Positions 712 through 41,809 of a stretch of DNA of 43,959 nt are shown piece after piece. Position 1 is the first letter of the stretch. Each line of letters begins with the position of its first letter. The notes under the pieces are model-generated. The model was given only the letters and a program-made list of their open reading frames with translations, searched no databases and had not been told where the DNA came from. The position numbers and the translations under genes were made by a program. Origin of the DNA: a virus (taxonomy: Duplodnaviria; Heunggongvirae; Uroviricota; Caudoviricetes); IMG/VR virus record IMGVR_UViG_2925914267_000003, positions 1-43,959 of that record. One strand, given 5' to 3'.

Positions 712-1296
712 TTACTCCCTGACAGGGTTCGTAGGCCACTCAATATCAGGTGCAGTTGATGTATCAACACGGTTCAGCAACACCCGATACTTTTTCCAGG
801 CTTCCAGCAACGAGATTTCTTCCTCCGTTGCAATTTCCAGATCTGCAGCATCCTGAAGCGGCGCAATATACTCACTGGCTACCTGCATCAGGCTGTTTTT
901 TGTTTCTTCTGCCTCCCGGATCCGGAACAGTTTTTCTGCTTCCGTATCCTTCACCCAGGCTGTGCCGTTCCACTTCTGATATTCCCCTTCCGGGGATAAC
1001 CAGGTGACATTTTCCGGTAACGAGCCAAGTTCAGAAATAAATAACGCGTCGCCGGAAGCCACGTCATAGACGGTTTTTCCCCGATGATCTTCAACGAGAT
1101 GCCACGATGCCTCATCACTATTGAAAACAGCCACAAAGCCAGCCGGAATATCTGGCGGTGCAATATCGGTACTGTTTGCTGGCAGACCTGTATGAGGCGG
1201 AATATATGCATCACCTTCACCAATAAATTCATTAGTTCCGGACAGCAGATTATAAATTTTTATGGTCCGTGGTTGTTCACTCATTCTGAATGCCAT
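712..1296 (-). CDS. tfa: tail fibre assembly protein Tfa
   Basis: 194-aa ORF directly downstream of stf with start/stop overlap; sequence recognised as lambda-type Tfa (from memory). Confidence 0.85.
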
Positions 1297-4172
1297 TATG
1301 CAAGCCTCACAATATAGTTAAATGCGATGTTTTTGACGGTGTTTTCCGCGTTACCAGCAGCGTTAACGGTGATTGTGTGTCCATGTGAGCCAATCGCAAC
1401 AGAGTGCGTATGAGCACCAATACCGACAGTATGCGTGTGTGCACCTGCGCTTGCAGCAGTACCCGATACAAAGTGCGTATGAGCGCCTGCAGAAGGAGGG
1501 ATAGAGCTGTATCTAGAATAATCAGGTGCTCCACTTCCCGGAGCCCCCCTGGAACCGGCTGAAGCAGCCGTACCGCTAACACTATGGGTATGCGCCCCGG
1601 TGTTATTCGTGGATTTAGTGCCGTAATCAAACGATGATGTGGTTTTCGTCCCCAAATCCGTACTGGATGCGCTGGCGCTGTGGGTGTGCGATTTAATGCC
1701 GTCCTGTTCCTGAGACAATACGGCACGACCACTAGCGGGTTTGCCCTTAATCGTCCAGCCACGCATATCAGGGATCACGCCTGACGGATAAGCGGCTGCA
1801 AGTTTCGGGTATGCAGATTTGTCAAAAGTCTGCCCCTGCATCAGGGCATAGCCAGACGGAACGGTATCTGATGGCCACGGGATTGGTGCGCCAGGCGGAT
1901 AAAACTGCTCTGATGGCGTATAGAGTGAATAAACTGTACCGTCCGTTAACCCTTCCGGCTTATTAGCAGAATATGCTGGTGACGTATGAATCGTCACGCT
2001 GGCATTACTGGTATAATCCCATTGAATATTTACACCAGTCGCATAATTTCCGATTGCAACGTAAATATCGTAAGTATCACCAGATGTATTGACCCAGGCA
2101 AAATTTGTAAACCCTGTCGATGTGCGCTGCCATAAAGCACCAGTAATCCCCTTCGGATTACCATTACCTGCACGCAAAACAAGTTCAGATATACCTGCCT
2201 GTTGAGGTGACCCCACGTTAAATCCCGCGCCACCAATCAACGTAATTGAAACAACAGAACTCGCCTGTGGCATGGTTACCGTTGCTAATTTGAACCAACC
2301 AGCACCACCGCTGAATGACATTGTTGTTGAGTTAAGCGTACCAATATCTTTCGGCGTCAGTGTTATATCCGCTGAAAGCTCCTTACCATTCACCTTACGG
2401 GCAGAAGGTACCCGACCATTCGCATTATCATTAGCTGCTTTCACTGCTTTCGGTGTCGCGGCAAGCGTTTCAGATGCGCTGTTGGTTGCACTACTGAGCT
2501 GGACAATTCCTTTTTGTGCTGTCGTAGCGTCATGAGCAGTATATTTCCCGTTAGCAAGGTCATAGGCTGCCTTTACCGACTTTGGCGTTGCCGCCAGCAT
2601 TTCAGATGTGCTGTTGGTCGCGCTGCTAAGCTGAACTATCCCTTTCTGTGCTGTCGTTGCATCCTGAGCGGTATATTTCCCGTTAGCCAGCTCATACGCG
2701 GCCTTAACGGCTTTTGGCGTTGCCGCCAGTGACTCGGAAGTGCTGTTAGTCGCGCTGCTGAGCTGTACTATCCCCTTTTTCGTCGTGCTCGCATCCTCAA
2801 GCGCCACGGCGGATGCAATATCCTCTGCCCGTTTTGCTGCTGTCTCGGCGCGCGTTGCCGCGGATTCCGCCGTACTCTTGCTCTGAGCTGCCGCCGTCGC
2901 ACTGCCAGCTGCCTCTGTCGCCTTCGTGGATGCCGTCGTGGCACTGCCCTTCGCTGCTGATGCTTGTCTGGTCGCCTCATCTTTTGAAGCAGACGCAGAT
3001 GATGCCGATGACGCCGCCGAACTGGCGGACGATGCGGCAGCCGTTTTTGAGGATTCTGCGCTGGTTTCCGACGCTTTCGCGTTCGTCTCGGATGTCTTCG
3101 CTGCGGAAGCAGACCTCGCTGCTGCGCTGGCCTGTTCAGTGGCTTCGCCAGCCTTCGTTGTGGCTGTTGAAGCGGACGATGCGGCGCTTTCTGCCGATTT
3201 TCCGGCGGAGCTAGCACTGGCTGAGGCCTGCCCGGCACTTGTTGACGCTGCACTGGCAGACGACGCAGCCGCTGTTTTTGAGCCTGCCGCAGCTGAGGCG
3301 CTCTGTCCCGCTGCCGTTTCAGAAGACTTAGCGTTCGTCTCGGACGTTTTTGCCGCCTTCGCAGAATTTGCTGCCGCCGTTGCCGAGGAAGCGGCACTAC
3401 TGGCGCTCGAGGCTGTGTTCGTTTCTGATGATTTTGCCGCCTCTTTTGAAGCCGACGCATCCCGTGCTGAAGTGGCTGCTTCTGACGCTTTCGTGGTCGC
3501 GGTGGATGCAGAAGTGGCGGCTGATTGTTGTGACGCTGCCGCATTCGTTTCTGACGTTTTCGCCGCACCGGCACTGGTAGCCGCCGCGCTTTTTGAGGAC
3601 TCTGCAGCAGCAGCACTTTTCGATGCTTCACTGGCCTTTGTTGATGCCGTTCCTGCGCTGGAAGATGCTGACTGAGCAGATGATGCAGCCTGTCCGGCTG
3701 ACGTTCTGGCGGCACGAGCTGAGCCTGCAGCATCGGTTGCATGAGTTGCCGCCTCACTGGCAGATGTGCGGGCATCACTGGCTGACTTCTTCGCGGCTGC
3801 CGTGTTCTGTGCCACTGCGGACGCGTTACGCGCCACCTCTTCCACCATCAGTTCAAAACGTCGCAATGCCTCCGGACGGGCATCATCCTCCGTCATGGCA
3901 CCGAGAAAATCATTCAGCGTACCGGGTTGAGAATCTTCATACACGGTGATGGTCCCGGCATGTGACGGCGGGAATCCCTCCACCAACAGAATAACGCTGT
4001 ACTGACCGTACTCAACGTCCATGCTGTAACGCCCGGCTTCATCCGGATTTTCTGAGGCCAGCGTGTTCACCACCACCGTGGTGCTGTTACGTTTTGCTTT
4101 CAGCTGGATTGTGCAGTTCTGTACCGGTTTTCCTGTGCCGTCTTTCAGTACACCTGAAATCTTTACTGCCAT
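1296..4172 (-). CDS. stf: side tail fibre protein Stf
   Basis: 958-aa ORF; lambda-Stf-like N-terminus ([17 protein letters not shown]...), long Ala/Ser/Thr-rich low-complexity shaft, three 44-aa tandem repeats, His/Gly-rich C-terminal (GAHTHSVSG...) motif typical of side tail fibres. Confidence 0.85.
2478..2810 (-). repeat. about 2.5 tandem copies of a 132-bp (44-aa) coding repeat inside stf
   Basis: repeat starts near 2478, 2610, 2742; encoded peptide [19 protein letters not shown](M/T/S)LAATPK(A/S)VKAA(Y/N)(E/D)LANGKYTA(Q/H)DA repeated three times. Confidence 0.7.
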
Positions 4173-27581: not shown

Positions 27582-27656
<75 letters not shown>

Positions 27657-27659
27657 ATA

Positions 27660-27735
<76 letters not shown>

Positions 27736-27737
27736 AC

Positions 27738-27814
27738 TGGCCCGCCACCGAGGACTCGAACCTCGCACCATCAACTTAGAAGGTTGATGCTCTATCCGGA
27801 TGAGCTAGTAGCGG
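27738..27814 (-). tRNA. tRNA-Arg (anticodon UCU)
   Basis: 77-nt cloverleaf: anticodon stem TCAAC/GTTGA, loop CTTCTAA, T-arm CGAGG TTCGAGT CCTCG, 3' CCA encoded. Confidence 0.7.
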
Positions 27815-27815
27815 C

Positions 27816-27891
27816 TGGTGGCCCTTGCTGGATTTGAACCAGCGACCTGGCGATTATGAGTCGCTCGCTCTCACCACTGAGCTAAAGGGCC
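27816..27891 (-). tRNA. tRNA with CAU anticodon (Ile2/lysidine type or Met), ileX/ileZ-like
   Basis: 76-nt cloverleaf GGCCCTTTAGCTCAGTGGTGAGAGCGAGCGACTCATAATCGCCAGGTCGCTGGTTCAAATCCAGCAAGGGCCACCA; resembles E. coli ileX as remembered. Confidence 0.75.
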
Positions 27892-31483: not shown

Positions 31484-31639
31484 TTACCCTCTAGATTCGT
31501 AGTCTACGAAGACAGCGACCTCCGTCTGGCCGGTTCGGATTCGTACCTCGCAGAGGTCTTTCCTCGTTACCAGTGCCGTCACTATGACGGTTAAACAGAT
31601 GACGATAAGGGCGATTAACATCGCCTTTTGCTGCTTCAT
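31484..31639 (-). CDS. hok: Hok/Gef family type I toxin (HokD/RelF-like)
   Basis: 51-aa peptide MKQQKAMLIALIVICLTVIVTALVTRKDLCEVRIRTGQTEVAVFVDYESRG from internal ATG of track ORF 31484-31696; single TMD plus conserved KDLCEV/RTGQTEVAVF core. Confidence 0.8.
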   Translation of the reverse strand: MKQQKAMLIALIVICLTVIVTALVTRKDLCEVRIRTGQTEVAVFVDYESRG

Positions 31640-31929
31640 AGCCTGCTTCTCCTTGCCTTTCGGCACGTAAGAGGCTAACCTACATTTGTGAGACATAGAT
31701 TGAGCCTCAGATTAATGTTAAGCGTCTTGCAGGACGCGTAATGTTAACTGGGGCTTTTCTCTATCTGCCTTTGGTGTTCATGCCTGAGACAGATAGCCTC
31801 AAGCACCCGCAGCAATTCTACTTAACTCCCCTTTCACTGCAAACCGTTTTTATCCCCAGCGGCAAATCGAATACACAACAAGTGCTACCGCCATTGCAAT
31901 TCCTGTCGTTGTGAATGCCTCCGGCCAGG

Positions 31930-36606: not shown

Positions 36607-37026
36607 ATGGACAAATATGAATTTAGACGACAGCAACTCATCAAAATTCGTGATGAGAAATGCGATGGTAAAGCGGTTAACGTGGCCAGAAAGATCGGGC
36701 GCGAGCCTTCTTATGTATCAAGAATGTTGTACCCAGAGGGGAAAAAGGGAAAAAAACGGATCGCTGATGATATGGTGGAGATTATCGAAGAGTCCTTTGG
36801 GTTACCCCGGGGATGGATGGATGGTATCGTTTCATCATCAACGAACACAGCCTCCAGTTATGAAACAAGGGTTCTAACGCCACGACAACGTATTTTTTTA
36901 GATCTCTTAGACGAACTGCCAGAAAGTGAAGCGGATAACTTATTAAAAACTCTTGAAGAGAAAAAACAGTATTACAATATGATCTACGAAGAAATCCGTA
37001 AAAAGAAAGCACAAAACGCATCATAG
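36607..37026 (+). CDS. prophage repressor, DicA/RacR-like HTH protein (no S24 peptidase domain)
   Basis: 139-aa ORF; N-terminal HTH (VNVARKIGREPSYVSRML); C-terminal ...RIFLDLLDELPESEADNLL... resembles DicA C-terminus as remembered; flanked by operator pairs. Confidence 0.7.
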   Translation: MDKYEFRRQQLIKIRDEKCDGKAVNVARKIGREPSYVSRMLYPEGKKGKKRIADDMVEIIEESFGLPRGWMDGIVSSSTNTASSYETRVLTPRQRIFLDLLDELPESEADNLLKTLEEKKQYYNMIYEEIRKKKAQNAS

Positions 37027-37069: not shown

Positions 37070-37110
37070 TACCCATGGGTATTTACTTTTTAAATACCTA
37101 TGGGTATCCT
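37070..37110 (+). promoter_or_regulatory. OL-like operator pair with PL-like promoter
   Basis: perfect palindrome TACCCATGGGTA (~37070-37081) and TACCTATGGGTA (~37095-37106), 25 bp apart; candidate -35 TTTACT (~37082-37087) and -10 TATCCT (~37105-37110) overlap them. Confidence 0.5.
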
Positions 37111-37291
37111 TCTTTTCATACCAACCCACCCCGCCCACAGAACGCAGGGCAATACTTCGAGTTACCAGGCAGTGGTCAGGGGTTAAGTAGCCAGCCCGAG
37201 GCGTAAGAACATGACGGCAGGGTTCAACTTTAATAACTATGCAGCAGGTTTTTGTTCCGCCACCCCGGCGTTAAGGGGAAATGAGGTCAAC

Positions 37292-37444
37292 ATGGATACT
37301 ATCGATCTTGGCAACAACGAATCTCTGGTGTGCGGCGTGTTTCCCAACCAAGACGGCACGTTCACCGCGATGACGTATACCAAAAGTAAAACGTTTAAAA
37401 CCGAAGCTGGCGCGCATCGCTGGTTAGCAAGAAACTCTGACTGA
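37292..37444 (+). CDS. small protein, YdfA-like (first gene of PL-side operon)
   Basis: internal ATG of track ORF 37211-37444 (MDTIDLGNNESLVCGVFPNQDGTF...), GAGG SD 6 nt upstream; same position as ydfA in the Qin dicB operon. Confidence 0.5.
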   Translation: MDTIDLGNNESLVCGVFPNQDGTFTAMTYTKSKTFKTEAGAHRWLARNSD

Positions 37445-37455
37445 TGAGGTTGACG

Positions 37456-38094
37456 ATGGAATTTAAAGATTTACCTACTTCAATCCAGGAGATTGCAGCA
37501 CACACACTTCGTCATCGTCTGAACGAACTTGCATTGGAATCGGTAACGAAAAAAGACACTGATAATATAGCTCGTAATGTGCGCGATGCGTTTACCGGAT
37601 TGTATTTCTGTGCGTCTGTAAATAAACACGACTCAGATAGTGTGGCAAATAAAATTGCAGAAACGACAGCGCAAAACATCAATACGAAACCAACGGAAGA
37701 AGAAATTGATCAGTTTGCTCATGATGCTGGTTTAAAAAACAAGAAAGAAAAATCGCCATATGCGGGGAACATGTTTGTTTATGACAATCTCATCAGAATT
37801 CGTGGCGAAATTCCGGCGGAATACCTGGCAAGAGTCCATCAGGCATTGCTTAAAAATCTGGAAACAGAATTATTTGATGGCAACACTAACGGTTTCTTCA
37901 TGGTATCAGGCCTTGAGAAAGACTGGGATGCAGAAAAACGCTGGAATGTTGCTACATGGTTATTCAGTAACAGAGCCGCTGCCCTGGAAGCTTCGGCATG
38001 TATTTGCGGCCTGTTCTTAACAGACCACAAATATAACCTGGATGTGTACAGTTATATTTACGCTGAACACGGTCCGCTCTGGATTGACTGGTAA
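37456..38094 (+). CDS. hypothetical protein (212 aa), unknown function
   Basis: track ORF 37444-38094; preferred start ATG 37456 (GAGG SD 7 nt upstream), alternative 37444 overlapping upstream stop (TGATG); no recognisable motif. Confidence 0.5.
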   Translation: MEFKDLPTSIQEIAAHTLRHRLNELALESVTKKDTDNIARNVRDAFTGLYFCASVNKHDSDSVANKIAETTAQNINTKPTEEEIDQFAHDAGLKNKKEKSPYAGNMFVYDNLIRIRGEIPAEYLARVHQALLKNLETELFDGNTNGFFMVSGLEKDWDAEKRWNVATWLFSNRAAALEASACICGLFLTDHKYNLDVYSYIYAEHGPLWIDW

Positions 38095-38304
38095 TTATAA
38101 GGAAACACCAGCAGGGCCGCGGCGACCAACAGAACGATTAAAATCAATAATGCCATTATAAAGGACATTATTTAATTTATCGTCGAATGCTGATTCTGTT
38201 AGCCTCAACTCTGAATGAGTTTTTAATAACCCTGATTGCCTGAGTTGATTTACCAGGCATTCAATCTGTTTTTCAATAAGCGGATTTCTTTTTTTGTTTG
38301 GCAT
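38095..38304 (-). CDS. hypothetical small protein (69 aa), convergent to the PL operon
   Basis: track ORF 38095-38316 trimmed to ATG with GGAGGA SD (MPNKKRNPLIEKQIECLVNQLRQSGLLK...); its stop codon directly abuts the stop of the 212-aa gene (TAATTA). Confidence 0.4.
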   Translation of the reverse strand: MPNKKRNPLIEKQIECLVNQLRQSGLLKTHSELRLTESAFDDKLNNVLYNGIIDFNRSVGRRGPAGVSL

Positions 38305-38640
38305 TTTATCCTCCATTGAGGTTCTGGGTTAAAAATGGAGACCAACACGCTGCCACGTGTGGTCGTGCGCCGGACACGGATAAGAATCCGGTACTGACAG
38401 TTTACTGAAAGGATATATCCCTGAAAAGCCAGAGCATAACGCGAAAGCGCACGGCGAAATTGGTCTCTCTGTACGGTGTCGTTAAATTTAATTCGACCGT
38501 GCGCTTCCGGTTGTGGCACTCCGCGAAATGGCGCGGCGGTAAGTATGGCGGGGTTATTCCTTCCCCGTTGAGGACACCGGGTTGTCAGGTTGACCATACG
38601 CTTAAGTGACAACCCCGCTGCAACGCCCTCTGTTATCAAT

Positions 38641-38693
38641 TTTCTGGTGGCGTTTGGCGGTATCAGTTTTACTCCGTGACTGCTCTGCCGCCC
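38641..38693 (+). ncRNA. dicF: DicF small RNA
   Basis: tttctggtggcgtttggcggtatcagttttactccgtgactgctctgccgccc + T-run; differs at one position from E. coli K-12 DicF as remembered; ends in intrinsic terminator hairpin GGCGG...CCGCC; directly upstream of dicB. Confidence 0.7.
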
Positions 38694-38867
38694 TTTTTAA
38701 AGTGAATTTTGTGATGCGGTGAATGCGGCTAAGCGCACGCGGAACAGTTAAAACCAAAAACAGTGTTATGGGTGGGTTCTCTGTATCCGGCGTTAATTGT
38801 TAACTGGTTAACGTCACCTGGAGGCACCAGGCACCGCATCACAAAATTCATTGTTGAGGACGCGATA

Positions 38868-39056
38868 ATGGAAACGTTATTACCAAACGTTAATACGTCT
38901 GAAGGTTGTTTTGAAATTGGTGTCACTATCAGTAACCCAGTATTTACTGAAGATGCCATTAACAAGAGAAAACAAGAACGGGAGCTATTAAATAAAATAT
39001 GCATTGTTTCAATGCTGGCTCGTTTACGTCTGATGCCAAAAGGATGTGCACAATGA
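38868..39056 (+). CDS. dicB: cell division inhibitor DicB
   Basis: 62-aa ORF METLLPNVNTSEGCFEIGVTISNPVFTEDAINKRKQERELLNKICIVSMLARLRLMPKGCAQ from internal ATG with GAGGA SD; matches K-12 DicB as remembered. Confidence 0.8.
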   Translation: METLLPNVNTSEGCFEIGVTISNPVFTEDAINKRKQERELLNKICIVSMLARLRLMPKGCAQ

Positions 39057-39244
39057 ATTCAGCATTTGCGCTTGTTCTGACAGTTTATCTTGTTTCCGGA
39101 GAGCCAGTTGATATTGCAGTCAGTGTTCACAGGACAATGCAGGAATGTATGACTGCAGCAACCGAACAGAAAATTCCCGGTAACTGTTACCCGGTCGATA
39201 AAGTTATTCACCAGGATAATAACGAAATCCCGGCAGGTCTTTAA
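39053..39244 (+). CDS. ydfD: YdfD-like small protein (DUF1482)
   Basis: 63-aa ORF MNSAFALVLTVYLVSGEPVDIAVSVHRTMQECMTAATEQKIPGNCYPVDKVIHQDNNEIPAGL; overlaps dicB stop by 4 nt; gene order as in Qin. Confidence 0.65.
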   Translation: MNSAFALVLTVYLVSGEPVDIAVSVHRTMQECMTAATEQKIPGNCYPVDKVIHQDNNEIPAGL

Positions 39245-39337
39245 AACAGTTCCGTAATAAACATCCGATTTCATTCTTATATGCCAGCAATGGCAGGGAT
39301 TTGTTCATCCTTAAATCTGTAATGAGGTTAAAACAAA

Positions 39338-41809
39338 ATGAGTAAAGTCTTTATTTGCGCCGCCATTCCGGACGAACAGGCAATAAAGGAAGAAGGTGCA
39401 GTCGCTGTAGCCACTGCCATTGAAGCTGGTGATGAACGTCGCGCCCGCGCAAAATTTCACTGGCAATTCCTGGAACATTATCCGGCTGCTCAGGACTGCG
39501 CTTATAAATTTCTTGTTTGCGAGGATAAACCCGGTATACCCCGCCCTGCCCTCGATTCCTGGGATGCTGAATATATGCAGGAAAACCGCTGGGATGAGGA
39601 GTCTGCTTCCTTTGTCCCGGTTGAGACTGAATCAGATCCGATGAACGTCACTTTTGACAAGCTGGCCCCTGAAGTACAGAACGCTGTCATGGTTAAGTTC
39701 GACACATGTGAAAATATCACCGTTGATATGGTGATTAGCGCGCAGGAATTGTTGCAGGAAGACATGGCAACATTCGACGGACATATCGTTGAAGCGTTGA
39801 TGAAAATGCCAGAAGTTAACGCCATGTATCCGGAGCTTAAGCTGCATACCATCGGGTGGGTTAAGCATAAATGTAAGCCTGGTGCCAAATGGCCCGAAAT
39901 TCAGGCAGAGATGCGCATCTGGAAAAAACGTCGCGAAGGTGAACGCAAGGAAACCGGAAAATACACGTCTGTTGTTGATCTCGCCCGCGCCAGAGCCAAT
40001 CAACAGAACACTGAAAATTCAACAGGAAAAATCAACCCGGCCATTGCTGCCACTCATCGCGAATACAAGCAGACATGGAAAACACTGGATGATGAACTGG
40101 CCTACGCTCTGTGGCCTGGTGACATTGATGCCGGAAACATTGACGGCAGCATCCATCGCTGGGCAAAAAATGAAGTTATCAACAACGACCGCGAAGACTG
40201 GAAGCGTATCTCGGCATCAATGCGCAAACAGCCTGATGCCCTTCGCTACGACCGCCAGACTATTTTTGGCCTTGTCCGTGAGCGTCCGATCGACATTCAC
40301 AAAGACCCTGTGGCACTGAACAAATACATTACTGAATACCTGACTACAAAGGGCGTGTTTGAAGATGAAGGAACAAATCAGATCGCAACTGATACTCTCT
40401 CGTCGCCAGTACCAGAAACTGATGCAGTGGAAACGGCAATTCCGGACAACGAAAAAACCGAATGCAAAGTGGAAGTCGAACCATCTGTAGAGCGTGAGGG
40501 GCCGTTCTACTTCCTCTTCACCGACAAGGATGGCGAAAAATACGGTCGCGCAAACAAACTTTCTGGTCTGGATAAGGCACTGGCTGCCGGGGCTACTGAA
40601 ATCACGAAAGAAGAATATTTCGTCCGCAAAAACGGTACATACTCAGGTTCACAACAAAATACTGGTGCATCTGACACGACCGCACAACCAGGGCCGGTAA
40701 AAGTTACCGCTGACGAAGTAAACAACATTATGCAGGCAGCCAATATCAGCCAGCCTGACGCCGATGAACTGCTTGCAGTATCACGTGGTGAATTTGTTGC
40801 AGGGATTAGCGATCCGAATGATCCGAAATGGGTGAAGGGGATTGAAACCCGCGATTCTGTGAACCAGAACCAGCAAGAAACGGAACAGAACGGCCAGAAA
40901 GCGGAACAAAACAGCCCAAATACTCAACAAAACGAACCAGAAACGAAACAACCTGAACCAGTAGCGCAACAGGAACCGGAAAAGATCTGCACCGCCTGCG
41001 GTCAGAGCGATGGCGGCAACTGCCCTGATTGTGGCGCGGTGATGGGCGACGCAACATACCAGGAAACATTCAATGAAGAGAATCAGGTTGAAGTTCAGGA
41101 AAATGATCCGGAGGAAATGGAAGGCGCTGAACATCCACACAAGGAGAATGCTGACAGGTATCAGGACCACGCCAGCGATAATGAAACTGGCGAGGCGACA
41201 GCTCCCTTAATTAATGTGAACGGTCATCACGAAATCACATCCACCAGCAGAGTGTGGCACCATCTGATGATCGACCTTGAAACGATGGGAAAAAATCCTG
41301 ATGCGCCAATCAACTCTATTGGCGGTAAGTTTTTTGATCCAGTAACCGGAGAGATGGGGCCGGAATTTAGCAAGACCATCGATCTGGAAACAGCTGGCGG
41401 AGTCATTGATCGTGACACCATTAAATGGTGGCTTAAGCAATCACGCGAGGCGCAATCTGCCATTCTGACCGATGAAATCCCGTTAGATGATGCACTACTG
41501 CAATTGCGGGAATTTATCGCCGAAAACTCCGGTGAATTTTTTGTTCAGATCTGGGGAAATGGAGCCAACTTCGACAACACGATTTTGCGCCGTTCATACG
41601 AACGGCAGGGGATCCCCTGCCCGTGGCGTTACTACAACGATCGCGATGTACGCACAATCGTTGAGCTGGGGAAAGCCATAGGCTTCGATGCCAGAACGGC
41701 TATTCCATTCGAAGGTGAGCGCCATAATGCACTTGATGACGCTCGTCACCAGGCAAAATACGTTTCAGCTATCTGGCAAAAACTGATCCCGAATCAGGCT
41801 GATTTTTAA
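39338..41809 (+). CDS. large prophage exonuclease with C-terminal DEDDh 3'-5' exonuclease domain
   Basis: 823-aa ORF; C-terminal DnaQ-like motifs (MIDLETMG ; WGNGANFDNTIL ; HNALDDARHQAKY); long acidic low-complexity N-terminal/central part with a CxxC...CxxC ribbon. Confidence 0.6.
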   Translation: MSKVFICAAIPDEQAIKEEGAVAVATAIEAGDERRARAKFHWQFLEHYPAAQDCAYKFLVCEDKPGIPRPALDSWDAEYMQENRWDEESASFVPVETESDPMNVTFDKLAPEVQNAVMVKFDTCENITVDMVISAQELLQEDMATFDGHIVEALMKMPEVNAMYPELKLHTIGWVKHKCKPGAKWPEIQAEMRIWKKRREGERKETGKYTSVVDLARARANQQNTENSTGKINPAIAATHREYKQTWKTLDDELAYALWPGDIDAGNIDGSIHRWAKNEVINNDREDWKRISASMRKQPDALRYDRQTIFGLVRERPIDIHKDPVALNKYITEYLTTKGVFEDEGTNQIATDTLSSPVPETDAVETAIPDNEKTECKVEVEPSVEREGPFYFLFTDKDGEKYGRANKLSGLDKALAAGATEITKEEYFVRKNGTYSGSQQNTGASDTTAQPGPVKVTADEVNNIMQAANISQPDADELLAVSRGEFVAGISDPNDPKWVKGIETRDSVNQNQQETEQNGQKAEQNSPNTQQNEPETKQPEPVAQQEPEKICTACGQSDGGNCPDCGAVMGDATYQETFNEENQVEVQENDPEEMEGAEHPHKENADRYQDHASDNETGEATAPLINVNGHHEITSTSRVWHHLMIDLETMGKNPDAPINSIGGKFFDPVTGEMGPEFSKTIDLETAGGVIDRDTIKWWLKQSREAQSAILTDEIPLDDALLQLREFIAENSGEFFVQIWGNGANFDNTILRRSYERQGIPCPWRYYNDRDVRTIVELGKAIGFDARTAIPFEGERHNALDDARHQAKYVSAIWQKLIPNQADF

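What the first reader, a model, noticed from the sequence alone, without database searches (positions are those of the whole stretch)
37292..38304. Unknown 212-aa protein and a convergent 69-aa gene in the PL-proximal accessory slot
Where Qin has ydfB/ydfC (as I remember), this prophage has a 212-aa protein with no recognisable motif. It is followed by a 69-aa gene on the opposite strand with a strong GGAGGA SD, whose stop codon directly abuts the stop of the 212-aa gene (TAATTA) with no room for a terminator. The PL-proximal position is a known hotspot for superinfection exclusion, anti-restriction and defence genes, so this pair is my main candidate for an uncharacterised function.
Basis: inference. 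Interest (0 to 1): 0.5.

Follow-up and report, generated by a model that had tools for sequence, protein, structure and literature searches.

The report
Convergent prophage gene pair, swappable cassette
Two uncharacterised genes that face each other inside a prophage's repressed early operon are real, always travel together, and are one version of an exchangeable two-gene cassette that is common in E. coli prophages, but what they do is still unknown.

Summary
A 212-aa gene (F, 37456-38094, +) and a 69-aa gene (R, 38095-38304, -) meet stop-to-stop (TAATTA), and R has a GGAGGA Shine-Dalgarno. Neither matches Pfam, NCBIfam, PADLOC or PDB sequences. Both are under purifying selection (dN/dS about 0.2).

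The pair lies in the dicBF early-left operon of a lambdoid prophage: repressor, ydfA, F, R (reverse), DicF, dicB, ydfD, exonuclease.

- F has a roughly 55-aa N-terminal domain that is shared with many proteins carrying unrelated C-termini.
- At least ten unrelated small reverse genes start at the same ATG behind one conserved leader, about 335 nt upstream of DicF.
- The F C-domain and R recur together, still convergent, in three lineages down to 33-39% and 46-54% identity. This includes Salmonella prophages with a Cox-type switch and no DicF. All 73 loci found by searching for R alone carry the F C-domain, although most of these are near-identical E. coli copies.

Best reading (inferred, about 0.4): F is an induction-phase effector. 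R is its cognate small partner, made from the opposite strand while the operon is repressed. Convergent transcription would keep the two from being expressed together. The function has not been tested.

The parts
36607..37026 (+). Context: prophage repressor (139 aa), DicA-like only at its C-terminus. It is transcribed in the same direction as the early-left operon.
   Evidence: phrog_5736 'transcriptional regulator', E 4.4e-70. The NCBIfam DicA model scores 23.9 bits against a cut-off of 101.
37070..37106 (.). Palindromic terminator-like hairpin between the repressor gene and the operon. An A-run precedes it and a T-rich run follows it, so it could stop transcripts in both directions (inferred).
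   Evidence: Reported by the terminator scan on the + strand. It folds on both strands, at -22.9 and -24.0 kcal/mol.
37292..37444 (+). ydfA homologue (DUF1391, 50 aa), the first gene of the operon. It lies inside the finding's coordinates but is a separate gene.
   Evidence: PF07151, E 5.7e-30. It is 91% identical in DNA to K-12 ydfA.
37456..37620 (+). F, N-terminal domain (residues 1-55, two predicted helices). It is shared by many proteins whose C-termini are unrelated.
   Evidence: The N-terminus alone matches phrog_1363, 9419, 6937 and 33007. Most of the 53 hits among 1.84 billion representative proteins match only residues 1 to 55-90. 71 Stx-converting phages carry it at 42% identity. dN/dS is 0.32-0.39.
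37621..37746 (+). F, linker (residues 56-97). It is low in confidence and probably flexible, and it has insertions and deletions between alleles.
   Evidence: pLDDT is about 44-58 over residues 51-100. The alignment shows indels.
37747..38094 (+). F, C-terminal alpha/beta domain (residues 98-212, including the stop codon). Conserved motifs include YDNLIRIRGEIP and FDGNTNG. This is the part that always occurs with R.
   Evidence: Highly conserved in the family alignment A1. dN/dS is 0.17-0.20. Homologues at 33-39% identity with different N-termini occur in Salmonella-type prophages.
38095..38304 (-). R, a 69-aa gene convergent with F. Two helices are predicted (residues 8-24 and 37-61), followed by a conserved basic tail, GRRGPAGVSL. 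An A7 run lies at codons 4-6.
   Evidence: phrog_4274. Present in 596 of 5426 complete E. coli genomes. dN/dS is 0.17-0.23. AlphaFold2 model has pLDDT 68. Homologues at 46-54% identity sit next to every distant F C-domain homologue examined.
38305..38394 (-). Conserved leader upstream of R. Elements: hairpin 1 (38367-38394), hairpin 2 (38340-38364), a CTCCAT that is complementary to the Shine-Dalgarno region (38335-38340), and GGAGGA (38309-38314).
   Evidence: The leader is shared by all cassette types and by the Salmonella lineages. Hairpin 2 exists in four stem versions that differ on both arms. The leaders fold with z scores of -0.4 to -4.2, most between -2.7 and -4.2. Which strand uses the structure is not resolved.
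38399..38427 (-). Candidate sigma-70 promoter for R: TTTTCA, 17 nt spacer, TAAACT. The -35 is at 38422-38427 and the -10 at 38399-38404. It predicts a leader of roughly 90 nt. This is a weak consensus match and remains an inference.
   Evidence: It is the only candidate within 420 nt upstream of the ATG in four E. coli cassette types, at the same position in each. It falls below the threshold of the standard promoter scan.
38642..38693 (+). Context: DicF small RNA, about 335 nt from the R start codon.
   Evidence: Rfam RF00039, 76.4 bits. The spacing is constant at 333-342 nt across cassette types.
38868..39244 (+). Context: dicB (38868-39056) and a ydfD-like lysis gene (39053-39244), downstream in the same operon.
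   Evidence: ORF translations. RefSeq annotation of the 99.9% identical E24377A copy.

Best explanation
SHOWN.
- The 212-aa gene (F) and the 69-aa gene (R) are real protein-coding genes.
- They form a conserved two-gene module in the repressor-controlled early-left (dicBF) operon of a lambdoid prophage.
- F has the orientation of the operon, between ydfA and DicF. It consists of a roughly 55-aa helical N-domain shared with many other early proteins, a flexible linker, and a roughly 115-aa alpha/beta C-domain.
- R lies on the opposite strand. It starts at a fixed site behind a conserved, structured leader with a strong Shine-Dalgarno, and it ends exactly where F ends, with no terminator between the two genes.
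- In other prophages the same site drives at least ten unrelated small ORFs, so the position is a recombination-exchangeable slot.

INFERRED, about 0.4 overall.
- F is made only when the operon is derepressed.
- R is made from its own promoter while the operon is silent, that is, in the lysogen.
- Because the two transcription units collide head-on and overlap at their 3' ends, strong operon transcription shuts R off, and R transcription dampens leaky operon expression. The result would be either/or expression.
- R, a small soluble two-helix protein with a conserved disordered tail, binds and neutralises the F C-domain. F would then act only after full induction, which is the logic of an antidote-and-effector or immunity pair.
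- The target and activity of F are unknown.
For: Real genes:
- dN/dS is 0.17-0.23 for R in its own frame, against 1.3-2.1 in four of five control frames.
- dN/dS is 0.17-0.20 for the F C-domain.

Operon context:
- ydfA/DUF1391, DicF, and dicB, ydfD and the exonuclease are all present.
- In K-12 this operon is repressed by DicA and is not expressed under laboratory conditions (PMC5069750, read).

Coupling of the two genes:
- F is found full-length in 590 of 5426 E. coli genomes and R in 596.
- All 73 loci retrieved by searching for R alone have an F C-domain ORF convergent with it and abutting or overlapping it. Most of these are near-identical E. coli copies and are not independent.
- Three deeply diverged lineages keep the pair tail-to-tail: E. 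coli dicBF, Salmonella int-repressor-Cox, and a form with an HTH_3 domain inserted. Identities to the window proteins are 33-39% for the F C-domain and 46-54% for R. The N-termini of F differ, the flanking genes differ, and there is no DicF in the Salmonella loci scanned.

An expression site of its own for R:
- The leader, Shine-Dalgarno and ATG are conserved across all cassette types, and sequence divergence begins right after the ATG.
- Hairpin 2 of the leader has four compensatory stem versions.
- A single positionally conserved promoter-like site lies upstream.

R looks like a binder rather than an enzyme: 69 aa, two helices, no transmembrane segment, and no domain hit.
Against: - There is no expression, interaction or toxicity data of any kind.
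- The R promoter is only an 8-of-12 consensus match.
- The strand on which the leader hairpins act is ambiguous: 11 variants are more stable in the R sense and 15 in the operon sense.
- F is not obligatorily paired in the wider family. Stx phages carry N-domain proteins with no reverse gene.
- Two F body types each occur with two different R types or with none. In those cases only the C-terminal tail of F changes with R. Part of the pairing could therefore be simple linkage inside a recombination slot.
- In 5 of 40 unique loci of this type, R is frameshifted at its A-run while F stays intact. This is tolerable only if F is silent or harmless.
- The structure models are low in confidence (pLDDT 59 and 68), and the fold searches gave only non-specific matches.
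Confidence: 0.4

Rival explanations
1. Independent cargo. The reverse site is a 'moron' expression slot for lysogen-expressed small proteins that act on the host or on other phages. F is an ordinary early lytic accessory protein. The two are neighbours only because recombination between the conserved F N-domain and the conserved leader moves them as one block.
For: - At least ten unrelated ORFs use the same start site.
- The same F body occurs with two different R types, or with none.
- N-domain proteins exist in Stx phages without any R.
- R or F can be inactivated individually.
Against: - The F C-domain and R stay together and convergent across three lineages at 33-54% identity. This holds even where the left recombination arm (the N-domain) and the whole genomic context are different.
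- R was never found without the F C-domain (73 of 73 loci).
Confidence: 0.25
2. Reverse polarity. R is the lysogen's exclusion or abortive factor against superinfecting relatives. The F C-domain is the prophage's own early antidote, which lets the prophage grow lytically after induction. This is self-immunity in the manner of P22 sieB/esc or BstA/aba (recalled from the literature, not checked here).
For: - The orientation predicts that R is present in lysogens and that F appears only after derepression (from the sequence).
- The cognate pairing is conserved.
- The position matches that of the classical exclusion genes next to the repressor (established knowledge of lambda rex and sieB).
Against: - R types are small soluble proteins with no transmembrane segment, enzymatic domain or nucleotide-binding domain, which is unusual for a stand-alone exclusion factor.
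- No model of a known defence protein matches any cassette type.
Confidence: 0.12
3. Mainly RNA-level control. The conserved leader and promoter drive antisense transcription back through F and ydfA toward the operon promoter. This acts as a brake on the toxic dicBF operon, through transcriptional interference and 3'-overlapping double-stranded RNA. The proteins would be secondary passengers.
For: - The units are convergent with no terminator at the junction.
- The next terminator-like hairpin in the R direction lies only at 37070-37106, beyond the operon's 5' end.
- The operon is known to be highly toxic when expressed (PMC5069750).
- The leader, or part of it, is present in 3530 of 5426 E. 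coli genomes, including K-12, which lacks R.
Against: - R is under clear protein-level purifying selection and is conserved at 46-54% amino-acid identity.
- A strong Shine-Dalgarno and the ATG are maintained for every cassette type.
- This rival is compatible with the best explanation rather than exclusive of it.
Confidence: 0.1
4. Annotation noise: one or both ORFs are chance reading frames or decaying pseudogenes of a cryptic prophage.
For: - Frameshifted and truncated copies do exist in other genomes.
- Both genes are annotated only as 'hypothetical protein'.
Against: - dN/dS is about 0.2 in the correct frames.
- Both ORFs are intact in the window and in hundreds of genomes.
- Both are conserved in distant lineages.
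Confidence: 0.02

Closest known systems
dicBF operon of the K-12 Qin cryptic prophage (ydfA-ydfB-ydfC-dicF-dicB-ydfD)
   Same: It is the same operon. ydfA is 91% identical in DNA. From 38364 onward, the leader, DicF, dicB and ydfD are 95% identical. The K-12 operon is repressor-controlled and toxic when expressed (PMC5069750).
   Different: The window lacks ydfB and ydfC and carries F and R. K-12 lacks F, R, the Shine-Dalgarno and the ATG, and keeps only the distal part of the leader. F and R have never been described in the dicBF papers I could search.
Pore-forming colicin operons (activity gene, then an immunity gene on the opposite strand with its own promoter, then a lysis gene). Recalled from established literature, not tested here.
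   Same: - A small gene lies convergent inside an inducible operon that ends in killing or lysis genes.
- The large protein has a conserved N-terminal part and a variable C-terminal part.
- A small partner gene is exchanged together with that C-terminal part.
   Different: - There is no sequence or fold similarity.
- R has no transmembrane helices, whereas those immunity proteins are membrane proteins.
- F shows no sign of export.
- Cognate specificity is untested here.
Type II toxin-antitoxin modules (for example relBE, which sits beside this same cassette in E24377A)
   Same: A two-gene module on a mobile element, with a small, probably partly disordered protein that could neutralise a larger partner.
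   Different: - The genes are convergent, not co-transcribed.
- Neither protein hits a toxin or antitoxin family.
- There is no evidence of autoregulation or toxicity.
Type I toxin-antitoxin loci with convergent, 3'-overlapping transcripts (for example Bacillus txpA/RatA and bsrG/SR4; recalled, not tested here)
   Same: Tail-to-tail transcription units with no terminator between them, so the two RNAs must overlap at their 3' ends. In the other cassette types the coding regions themselves overlap by 11-131 nt.
   Different: Here both partners encode conserved soluble proteins. F is not a small hydrophobic peptide.
Repressor-proximal lysogen-expressed genes of lambdoid phages (lambda rexAB and sieB, P22 sieB/esc, HK022 nun; recalled, not tested here)
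   Same: They occupy the same neighbourhood, between the repressor and the recombination genes. Their expected expression is in the lysogen.
   Different: There is no homology. R is antisense to the early operon rather than co-directional with the repressor. No exclusion phenotype is known for it.
Polymorphic toxin systems (CdiA-CT/CdiI and Rhs; recalled, not tested here)
   Same: A conserved N-terminal region is joined to exchangeable C-terminal regions, each with its own adjacent small gene.
   Different: The proteins here are intracellular phage early proteins with no secretion signals. The partner gene is convergent. For several types, only a short C-terminal tail of F co-varies with R.

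Membership tests
dicBF (Qin-type) early-left operon | A DUF1391/ydfA gene at the 5' end of the operon | tested here: met
   PF07151, E 5.7e-30, at 37292-37441. It is 91% identical in DNA to K-12 ydfA.
dicBF (Qin-type) early-left operon | DicF small RNA followed by dicB and ydfD | tested here: met
   RF00039 scores 76.4 bits at 38642-38693. The DicB and YdfD reading frames are present and are annotated in the 99.9% identical E24377A copy.
dicBF (Qin-type) early-left operon | ydfB and ydfC between ydfA and dicF | tested here: not met
   There is no similarity to K-12 between 37438 and 38363. F starts 12 nt after the ydfA stop codon.
dicBF (Qin-type) early-left operon | DicA repressor upstream | tested here: inconclusive
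   The 139-aa repressor matches the DicA model only at its C-terminus, with 23.9 bits against a cut-off of 101. It belongs to phrog_5736. It is therefore a different immunity type in the same position.
PHROG phrog_2151 (F) and phrog_4274 (R), both of unknown function | Full-length match to the family profile | tested here: met
   F matches over residues 1-212 of 212 with E 3.5e-144. R matches over 1-69 of 69 with E 1.2e-51.
Type II toxin-antitoxin system | A recognisable toxin or antitoxin domain | tested here: not met
   No Pfam or NCBIfam hit at or near the curated cut-offs for either protein.
Type II toxin-antitoxin system | A co-directional two-gene operon | tested here: not met
   The genes are on opposite strands and meet stop-to-stop.
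Type II toxin-antitoxin system | Growth inhibition by one partner that is neutralised by the other through direct binding | not testable with these tools
   This needs expression and interaction experiments. The only indirect support is the conserved co-occurrence of the two genes.
Known anti-phage defence systems (PADLOC-DB v2) | A match to any defence-protein model | tested here: not met
   No hit for F or R. Ten proteins from other cassette types gave only marginal hits, with E of 0.008 or weaker.
Colicin-type activity/immunity arrangement | A small partner gene on the opposite strand inside an inducible operon | tested here: met
   Seen directly in the sequence. This is a resemblance in layout only.
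Colicin-type activity/immunity arrangement | Homology to colicin or immunity families, and a membrane-embedded immunity protein | tested here: not met
   No family hits. R is predicted to be a soluble two-helix protein.
Colicin-type activity/immunity arrangement | The variable C-terminal domain and the partner gene are exchanged as cognate units | tested here: inconclusive
   Pairing is one-to-one for five cassette types and is conserved across three lineages for this type. Two F body types, however, each occur with two R types.
Type I toxin-antitoxin (convergent, 3'-overlapping) | A small hydrophobic toxin peptide and a non-coding antisense RNA antitoxin | tested here: not met
   F is a 212-aa soluble-looking protein. 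R is protein-coding under purifying selection.

The most novel reading that the evidence does not exclude
E. coli and Salmonella prophages carry a previously undescribed plug-in system inside their repressed early operon. It has three parts:
- a fixed antisense expression site (promoter, structured leader, Shine-Dalgarno, ATG) that can host many unrelated small proteins made in the lysogen;
- facing it, an early protein built from a common N-terminal adaptor domain and exchangeable C-terminal effector parts;
- cognate pairs such as this F C-domain with R, which would act as an effector and its inhibitor, switched by convergent transcription at the moment of induction.

This would be a new class of lysis-lysogeny or inter-phage conflict module.
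Probability: 0.25. Interest if true: 0.75.

Novelty: new variant of a known kind. Interest (0 to 1): 0.58.

Why it matters
The dicBF operon is one of the best-known toxic prophage loci in E. coli, yet the genes between ydfA and DicF have never been given a function.

How common it is:
- This pair is in about 11% of complete E. coli genomes. These include O157:H7 EDL933, strains labelled O111 and O145, and ETEC E24377A.
- The leader that drives the reverse gene, or part of it, is in about 65% of genomes, at up to seven copies per genome.

Why it is worth testing:
- If the pair is an effector and its lysogen-made inhibitor, it would add a control layer to prophage induction or to competition between resident prophages in pathogenic E. 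coli.
- It would supply at least ten small proteins as candidate specific inhibitors.
- The system is easy to test, because both genes are short and natural allelic swaps already exist.

If the two genes turn out to be unrelated cargo, the fixed antisense expression site is still a compact example of how prophages exchange lysogen-expressed genes.

Tried and rejected
Family and sequence searches that found nothing useful:
- Pfam, NCBIfam and PADLOC gave nothing for F, R or the other cassette types. PHROGs gave only families of unknown function.
- PDB sequence and profile searches gave nothing below E 0.1.
- A profile search of 1.84 billion representative proteins gave only 53 hits. Two giant repeat proteins among them look like compositional matches.
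- Scans of 185,579 species-representative genomes for R and for the F C-domain found none. The module is strain-level prophage cargo.
- The phage genome collection has no F C-domain and no R of types A, B or E. Type H has only one weak relative.

Structure:
- AlphaFold2 gave pLDDT 59 for F and 68 for R.
- Foldseek gave E above 4 for R.
- Foldseek gave E of about 0.01 or weaker for F, with TM below 0.3 on the query, to YsxB/Prp-like and SUI1-like proteins.
- I do not rely on any of these. At most they hint that the F C-domain is a small alpha/beta sandwich.
- The afdb50 library was unavailable.

RNA structure:
- RNAalifold on the leader recovered only hairpin 1, because the arms of hairpin 2 do not align between stem versions.
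- The G-U test for which strand uses hairpin 2 was ambiguous, 11 to 15.

Literature:
- Searches for ybl81, DUF1391 and dicB with related terms found no description of these genes.
- I could not link the genes to published EHEC transcriptome or ribosome-profiling data.

Idea rejected: that F/R replaces ydfB/ydfC. The two sets of genes co-occur in other prophages.
Full report
WHAT IS THERE. The window is a complete lambdoid prophage of E. coli. Its closest relative over this region is E24377A, at 99.9% identity over 37118-40000. Around the finding the gene order on the + strand is:
- a repressor, 36607-37026 (phrog_5736);
- a palindromic terminator-like hairpin, 37070-37106;
- a ydfA/DUF1391 gene, 37292-37444 (PF07151, E 5.7e-30);
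- the 212-aa gene, here called F, 37456-38094;
- the 69-aa gene, here called R, on the - strand, 38095-38304;
- a conserved non-coding stretch;
- DicF RNA, 38642-38693 (76.4 bits);
- dicB, a ydfD-like gene, an 823-aa exonuclease, and the integrase.

This is the dicBF operon known from the K-12 Qin prophage. In K-12 it is repressed by DicA and is toxic when expressed (PMC5069750).

CHECK OF THE OBSERVATION. The stop codons abut as TAATTA, GGAGGA precedes the R start codon, and no terminator is detectable at the junction. The finding's start coordinate belongs to ydfA, not to F. Neither protein matches Pfam, NCBIfam, PADLOC or any PDB sequence. Both match PHROGs of unknown function over their full length.

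The ORFs are not chance frames.
- R has dN/dS of 0.17-0.23 in its own frame. Four of five control frames give 1.3-2.1, and the fifth is the antisense frame that shares its third positions.
- The F C-domain has dN/dS of 0.17-0.20 and the N-domain 0.32-0.39.

F is present full-length in 590 of 5426 complete E. coli genomes and R in 596. These include O157:H7 EDL933.

RELATION TO QIN. Compared with K-12, similarity covers ydfA (37254-37437) and everything from 38364 onward. The stretch 37438-38363 is different, and K-12 has ydfB and ydfC there. F/R is nevertheless not an alternative to ydfB/ydfC. Prophages L088, L261 and STEC316 carry ydfB and/or ydfC followed by a pair of this kind. K-12 keeps the leader only up to the CTCC that precedes the Shine-Dalgarno, then runs straight into the end of ydfC. 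Relative to those prophages, Qin lacks the pair.

THE PAIR IS ONE ALLELE OF A POLYMORPHIC CASSETTE. F has three parts:
- a roughly 55-aa N-terminal domain with two predicted helices, motif MEFKDLPxxIQxIAAxxL...NxxRNVRDAFxGLY;
- a linker of low model confidence that contains indels;
- a highly conserved C-terminal alpha/beta domain, residues 98-212.

The N-domain alone matches four other PHROGs. A search of 1.84 billion representative proteins returned only 53 hits. Most of them share just residues 1 to 55-90 and then continue into unrelated sequence.

I collected about 270 prophage loci from IMG/VR and from complete genomes. Every locus with this N-domain in a dicBF context falls into a handful of types. 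In almost all of them a small gene on the opposite strand converges on the 3' end of F, either abutting it or overlapping it by 11-131 nt.

These reverse genes are unrelated to one another:
- lengths are 63 to about 100 aa;
- one has a zinc-ribbon-like CxxC...CPxH motif;
- all are of unknown function.

All of them begin at the same ATG, behind the same Shine-Dalgarno and leader, 333-342 nt upstream of DicF. Sequence similarity between types ends within a few bases after the ATG. I count at least ten such ORF types on two versions of the leader. The variable block is therefore bounded on the left inside F, after the N-domain, and on the right exactly at the R start codon.

THE LEADER. Read in the R sense, the roughly 90 nt before the ATG contain:
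- hairpin 1 (GCCGGA...TCCGGC);
- hairpin 2;
- a CTCC(A/T)T stretch that is complementary to the Shine-Dalgarno region;
- GGAGG.

Hairpin 2 occurs in four versions with different sequence on both arms: GACCACACG/CGTGTTGGTC, CTCCAC/GTGGAG, TTCCCGA/TCGGGAA and CCCAAC/GTTGGG. That argues for a conserved structure. Individual leaders fold with z scores mostly between -2.7 and -4.2, and the Shine-Dalgarno is at least partly paired in most predictions. The G-U test did not decide which strand uses the structure, and RNAalifold failed on hairpin 2.

The only promoter-like site within 420 nt upstream, at the same position in four E. coli cassette types, is TTTTCA, 17 nt spacer, TAAACT (38427-38399, minus strand). 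It would start the transcript just before hairpin 1. It is a weak match, and I treat it as an inference.

THE KEY RESULT FOR THIS PAIR. Distant homologues of the F C-domain (33-39% identity) occur in Salmonella and related prophages whose early region is integrase, HTH repressor, then Cox. These prophages have no ydfA, and no DicF in the two loci scanned. Their N-termini are different, and in one lineage an HTH_3 domain is inserted. In every case examined the gene is followed by a convergent, 3'-overlapping ORF of 64-69 aa that is a homologue of R. Identity to the window R is 52-54% in one lineage and 46% in the other, and the C-terminal RRxPAGxxL tail is conserved. The same leader elements lie upstream.

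Searching IMG/VR and metagenomes for R alone returned 73 loci, and all 73 have the F C-domain convergent and adjacent. Most of these are near-identical E. coli copies, so they are not independent. The F C-domain, R and the leader have stayed together through deep divergence and a change of genomic context. That is the strongest available argument that the two proteins work together.

LIMITS ON THAT INFERENCE. In the wider family the pairing is looser.
- Two F body types each occur with two different reverse genes, or with none, and only the extreme C-terminal tail of F changes with them.
- Stx-converting phages carry N-domain proteins with no reverse gene.
- In 5 of 40 unique loci of this type, R is frameshifted at its A7 run while F is intact. 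Truncated F copies with intact R also exist.

The slot therefore also behaves as a general expression site for small lysogen-side genes. Some of the co-variation may be plain linkage.

MECHANISM.

Shown:
- two conserved protein genes;
- fixed convergent geometry without a terminator;
- a conserved leader and start site for R;
- co-inheritance of the F C-domain and R.

Inferred from orientation and from what is known of the K-12 operon:
- F is made only after derepression;
- R can be made while the operon is silent;
- colliding, 3'-overlapping transcription would make their expression mutually exclusive;
- an R transcript that is not terminated would run antisense through F and ydfA as far as the hairpin at 37070-37106.

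R is small and soluble, with two predicted helices and a disordered conserved tail. That fits a binding or inhibitory protein better than an enzyme or a membrane exclusion factor.

My preferred reading, at about 0.4, is that R neutralises the F C-domain in the lysogen, and F is released to act when the operon fires. The layout is the same as in pore-forming colicin operons, and the logic is the same as in toxin-antitoxin pairs, but there is no homology to either. The rivals are:
- unrelated cargo in a shared slot (0.25);
- the reverse polarity, with R as an exclusion factor and F as self-immunity (0.12);
- a mainly RNA-level brake on the toxic operon (0.1), which is compatible with the preferred reading;
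- annotation noise (0.02), which the selection data effectively exclude.

WHAT DID NOT HELP. The structure models were poor (pLDDT 59 and 68). Fold searches gave only generic helical or small alpha/beta matches. No paper in the searchable library mentions these genes. The module is absent from species-representative genomes and from isolated phage genomes. This agrees with the earlier report that DicB and DicF homologues were found in resident prophages but not in phage genome databases (PMC5069750).

VERDICT. The pair is real, uncharacterised and widespread, and it is one allele of a previously undescribed exchangeable convergent cassette in the dicBF operon. The function is untested. The effector-and-partner model is a reasoned hypothesis with clear experiments to settle it.

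Noticed in passing
window 31634-31808 (-): A sok antitoxin RNA (Rfam RF01794, 117.5 bits). This indicates a hok/sok-type type I toxin-antitoxin locus inside the prophage.
   Followed up: no
window 755-953 (-): A full-length match to the Rfam family IS009 (RF02111, 223.9 bits), near the tail-fibre end of the prophage.
   Followed up: no
window 27582-27891 (-): A cluster of four prophage tRNA genes: Gly-TCC, Lys-TTT, Arg-TCT and Met-CAT.
   Followed up: no
window 37070-37106: A 16-pair palindromic hairpin with an A6 run before it and a T-rich run after it. It folds on both strands (-22.9 and -24.0 kcal/mol). It may be a two-way terminator separating the repressor gene from the early-left operon.
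   Followed up: partly
window 38289-38295: A homopolymer run (T7 on the + strand, A7 in the R sense) at codons 4-6 of the 69-aa gene. A run one base shorter truncates R to 17 aa in 5 of 40 unique loci of this type, while F stays intact. This could be slippage-prone on/off variation, or a single lineage.
   Followed up: partly
window 38305-38640; K-12 locus L002: The 'long untranslated region' upstream of DicF is the conserved leader and promoter region of the reverse gene. It, or part of it, is present in 3530 of 5426 E. coli genomes, at up to seven copies. K-12 retains it without the Shine-Dalgarno, the ATG or the gene. Parts of it are conserved even in Salmonella prophages that lack DicF.
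   Followed up: partly
L001 (E24377A) 3330-3801; L003 (EDL933) 2067-2405: The same cassette sits behind different immunity regions. In E24377A it follows another repressor plus a relBE toxin-antitoxin pair. In EDL933 it follows a LexA-family repressor. The cassette is therefore independent of immunity type.
   Followed up: no
window 39338-41809 (+): The 823-aa 3'-5' exonuclease gene is intact here, but it is annotated as frameshifted in the otherwise 99.9% identical E24377A copy.
   Followed up: no
L281 (Stx phage PA2) 3323-3427 (-): A 34-aa antisense remnant inside the Stx-phage N-domain gene resembles the C-terminal end of the 99-aa reverse gene of another cassette type (LDDIRLALSLELSGW compared with AEDIRLALVTELEEW). 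This suggests the Stx-phage gene derives from a cassette that lost its reverse partner.
   Followed up: no
L278 6582-6669 (+): A C4 antisense RNA (RF01695, 76.8 bits) lies downstream of the Salmonella version of the pair. That prophage also has a P1/P7-type immunity element.
   Followed up: no
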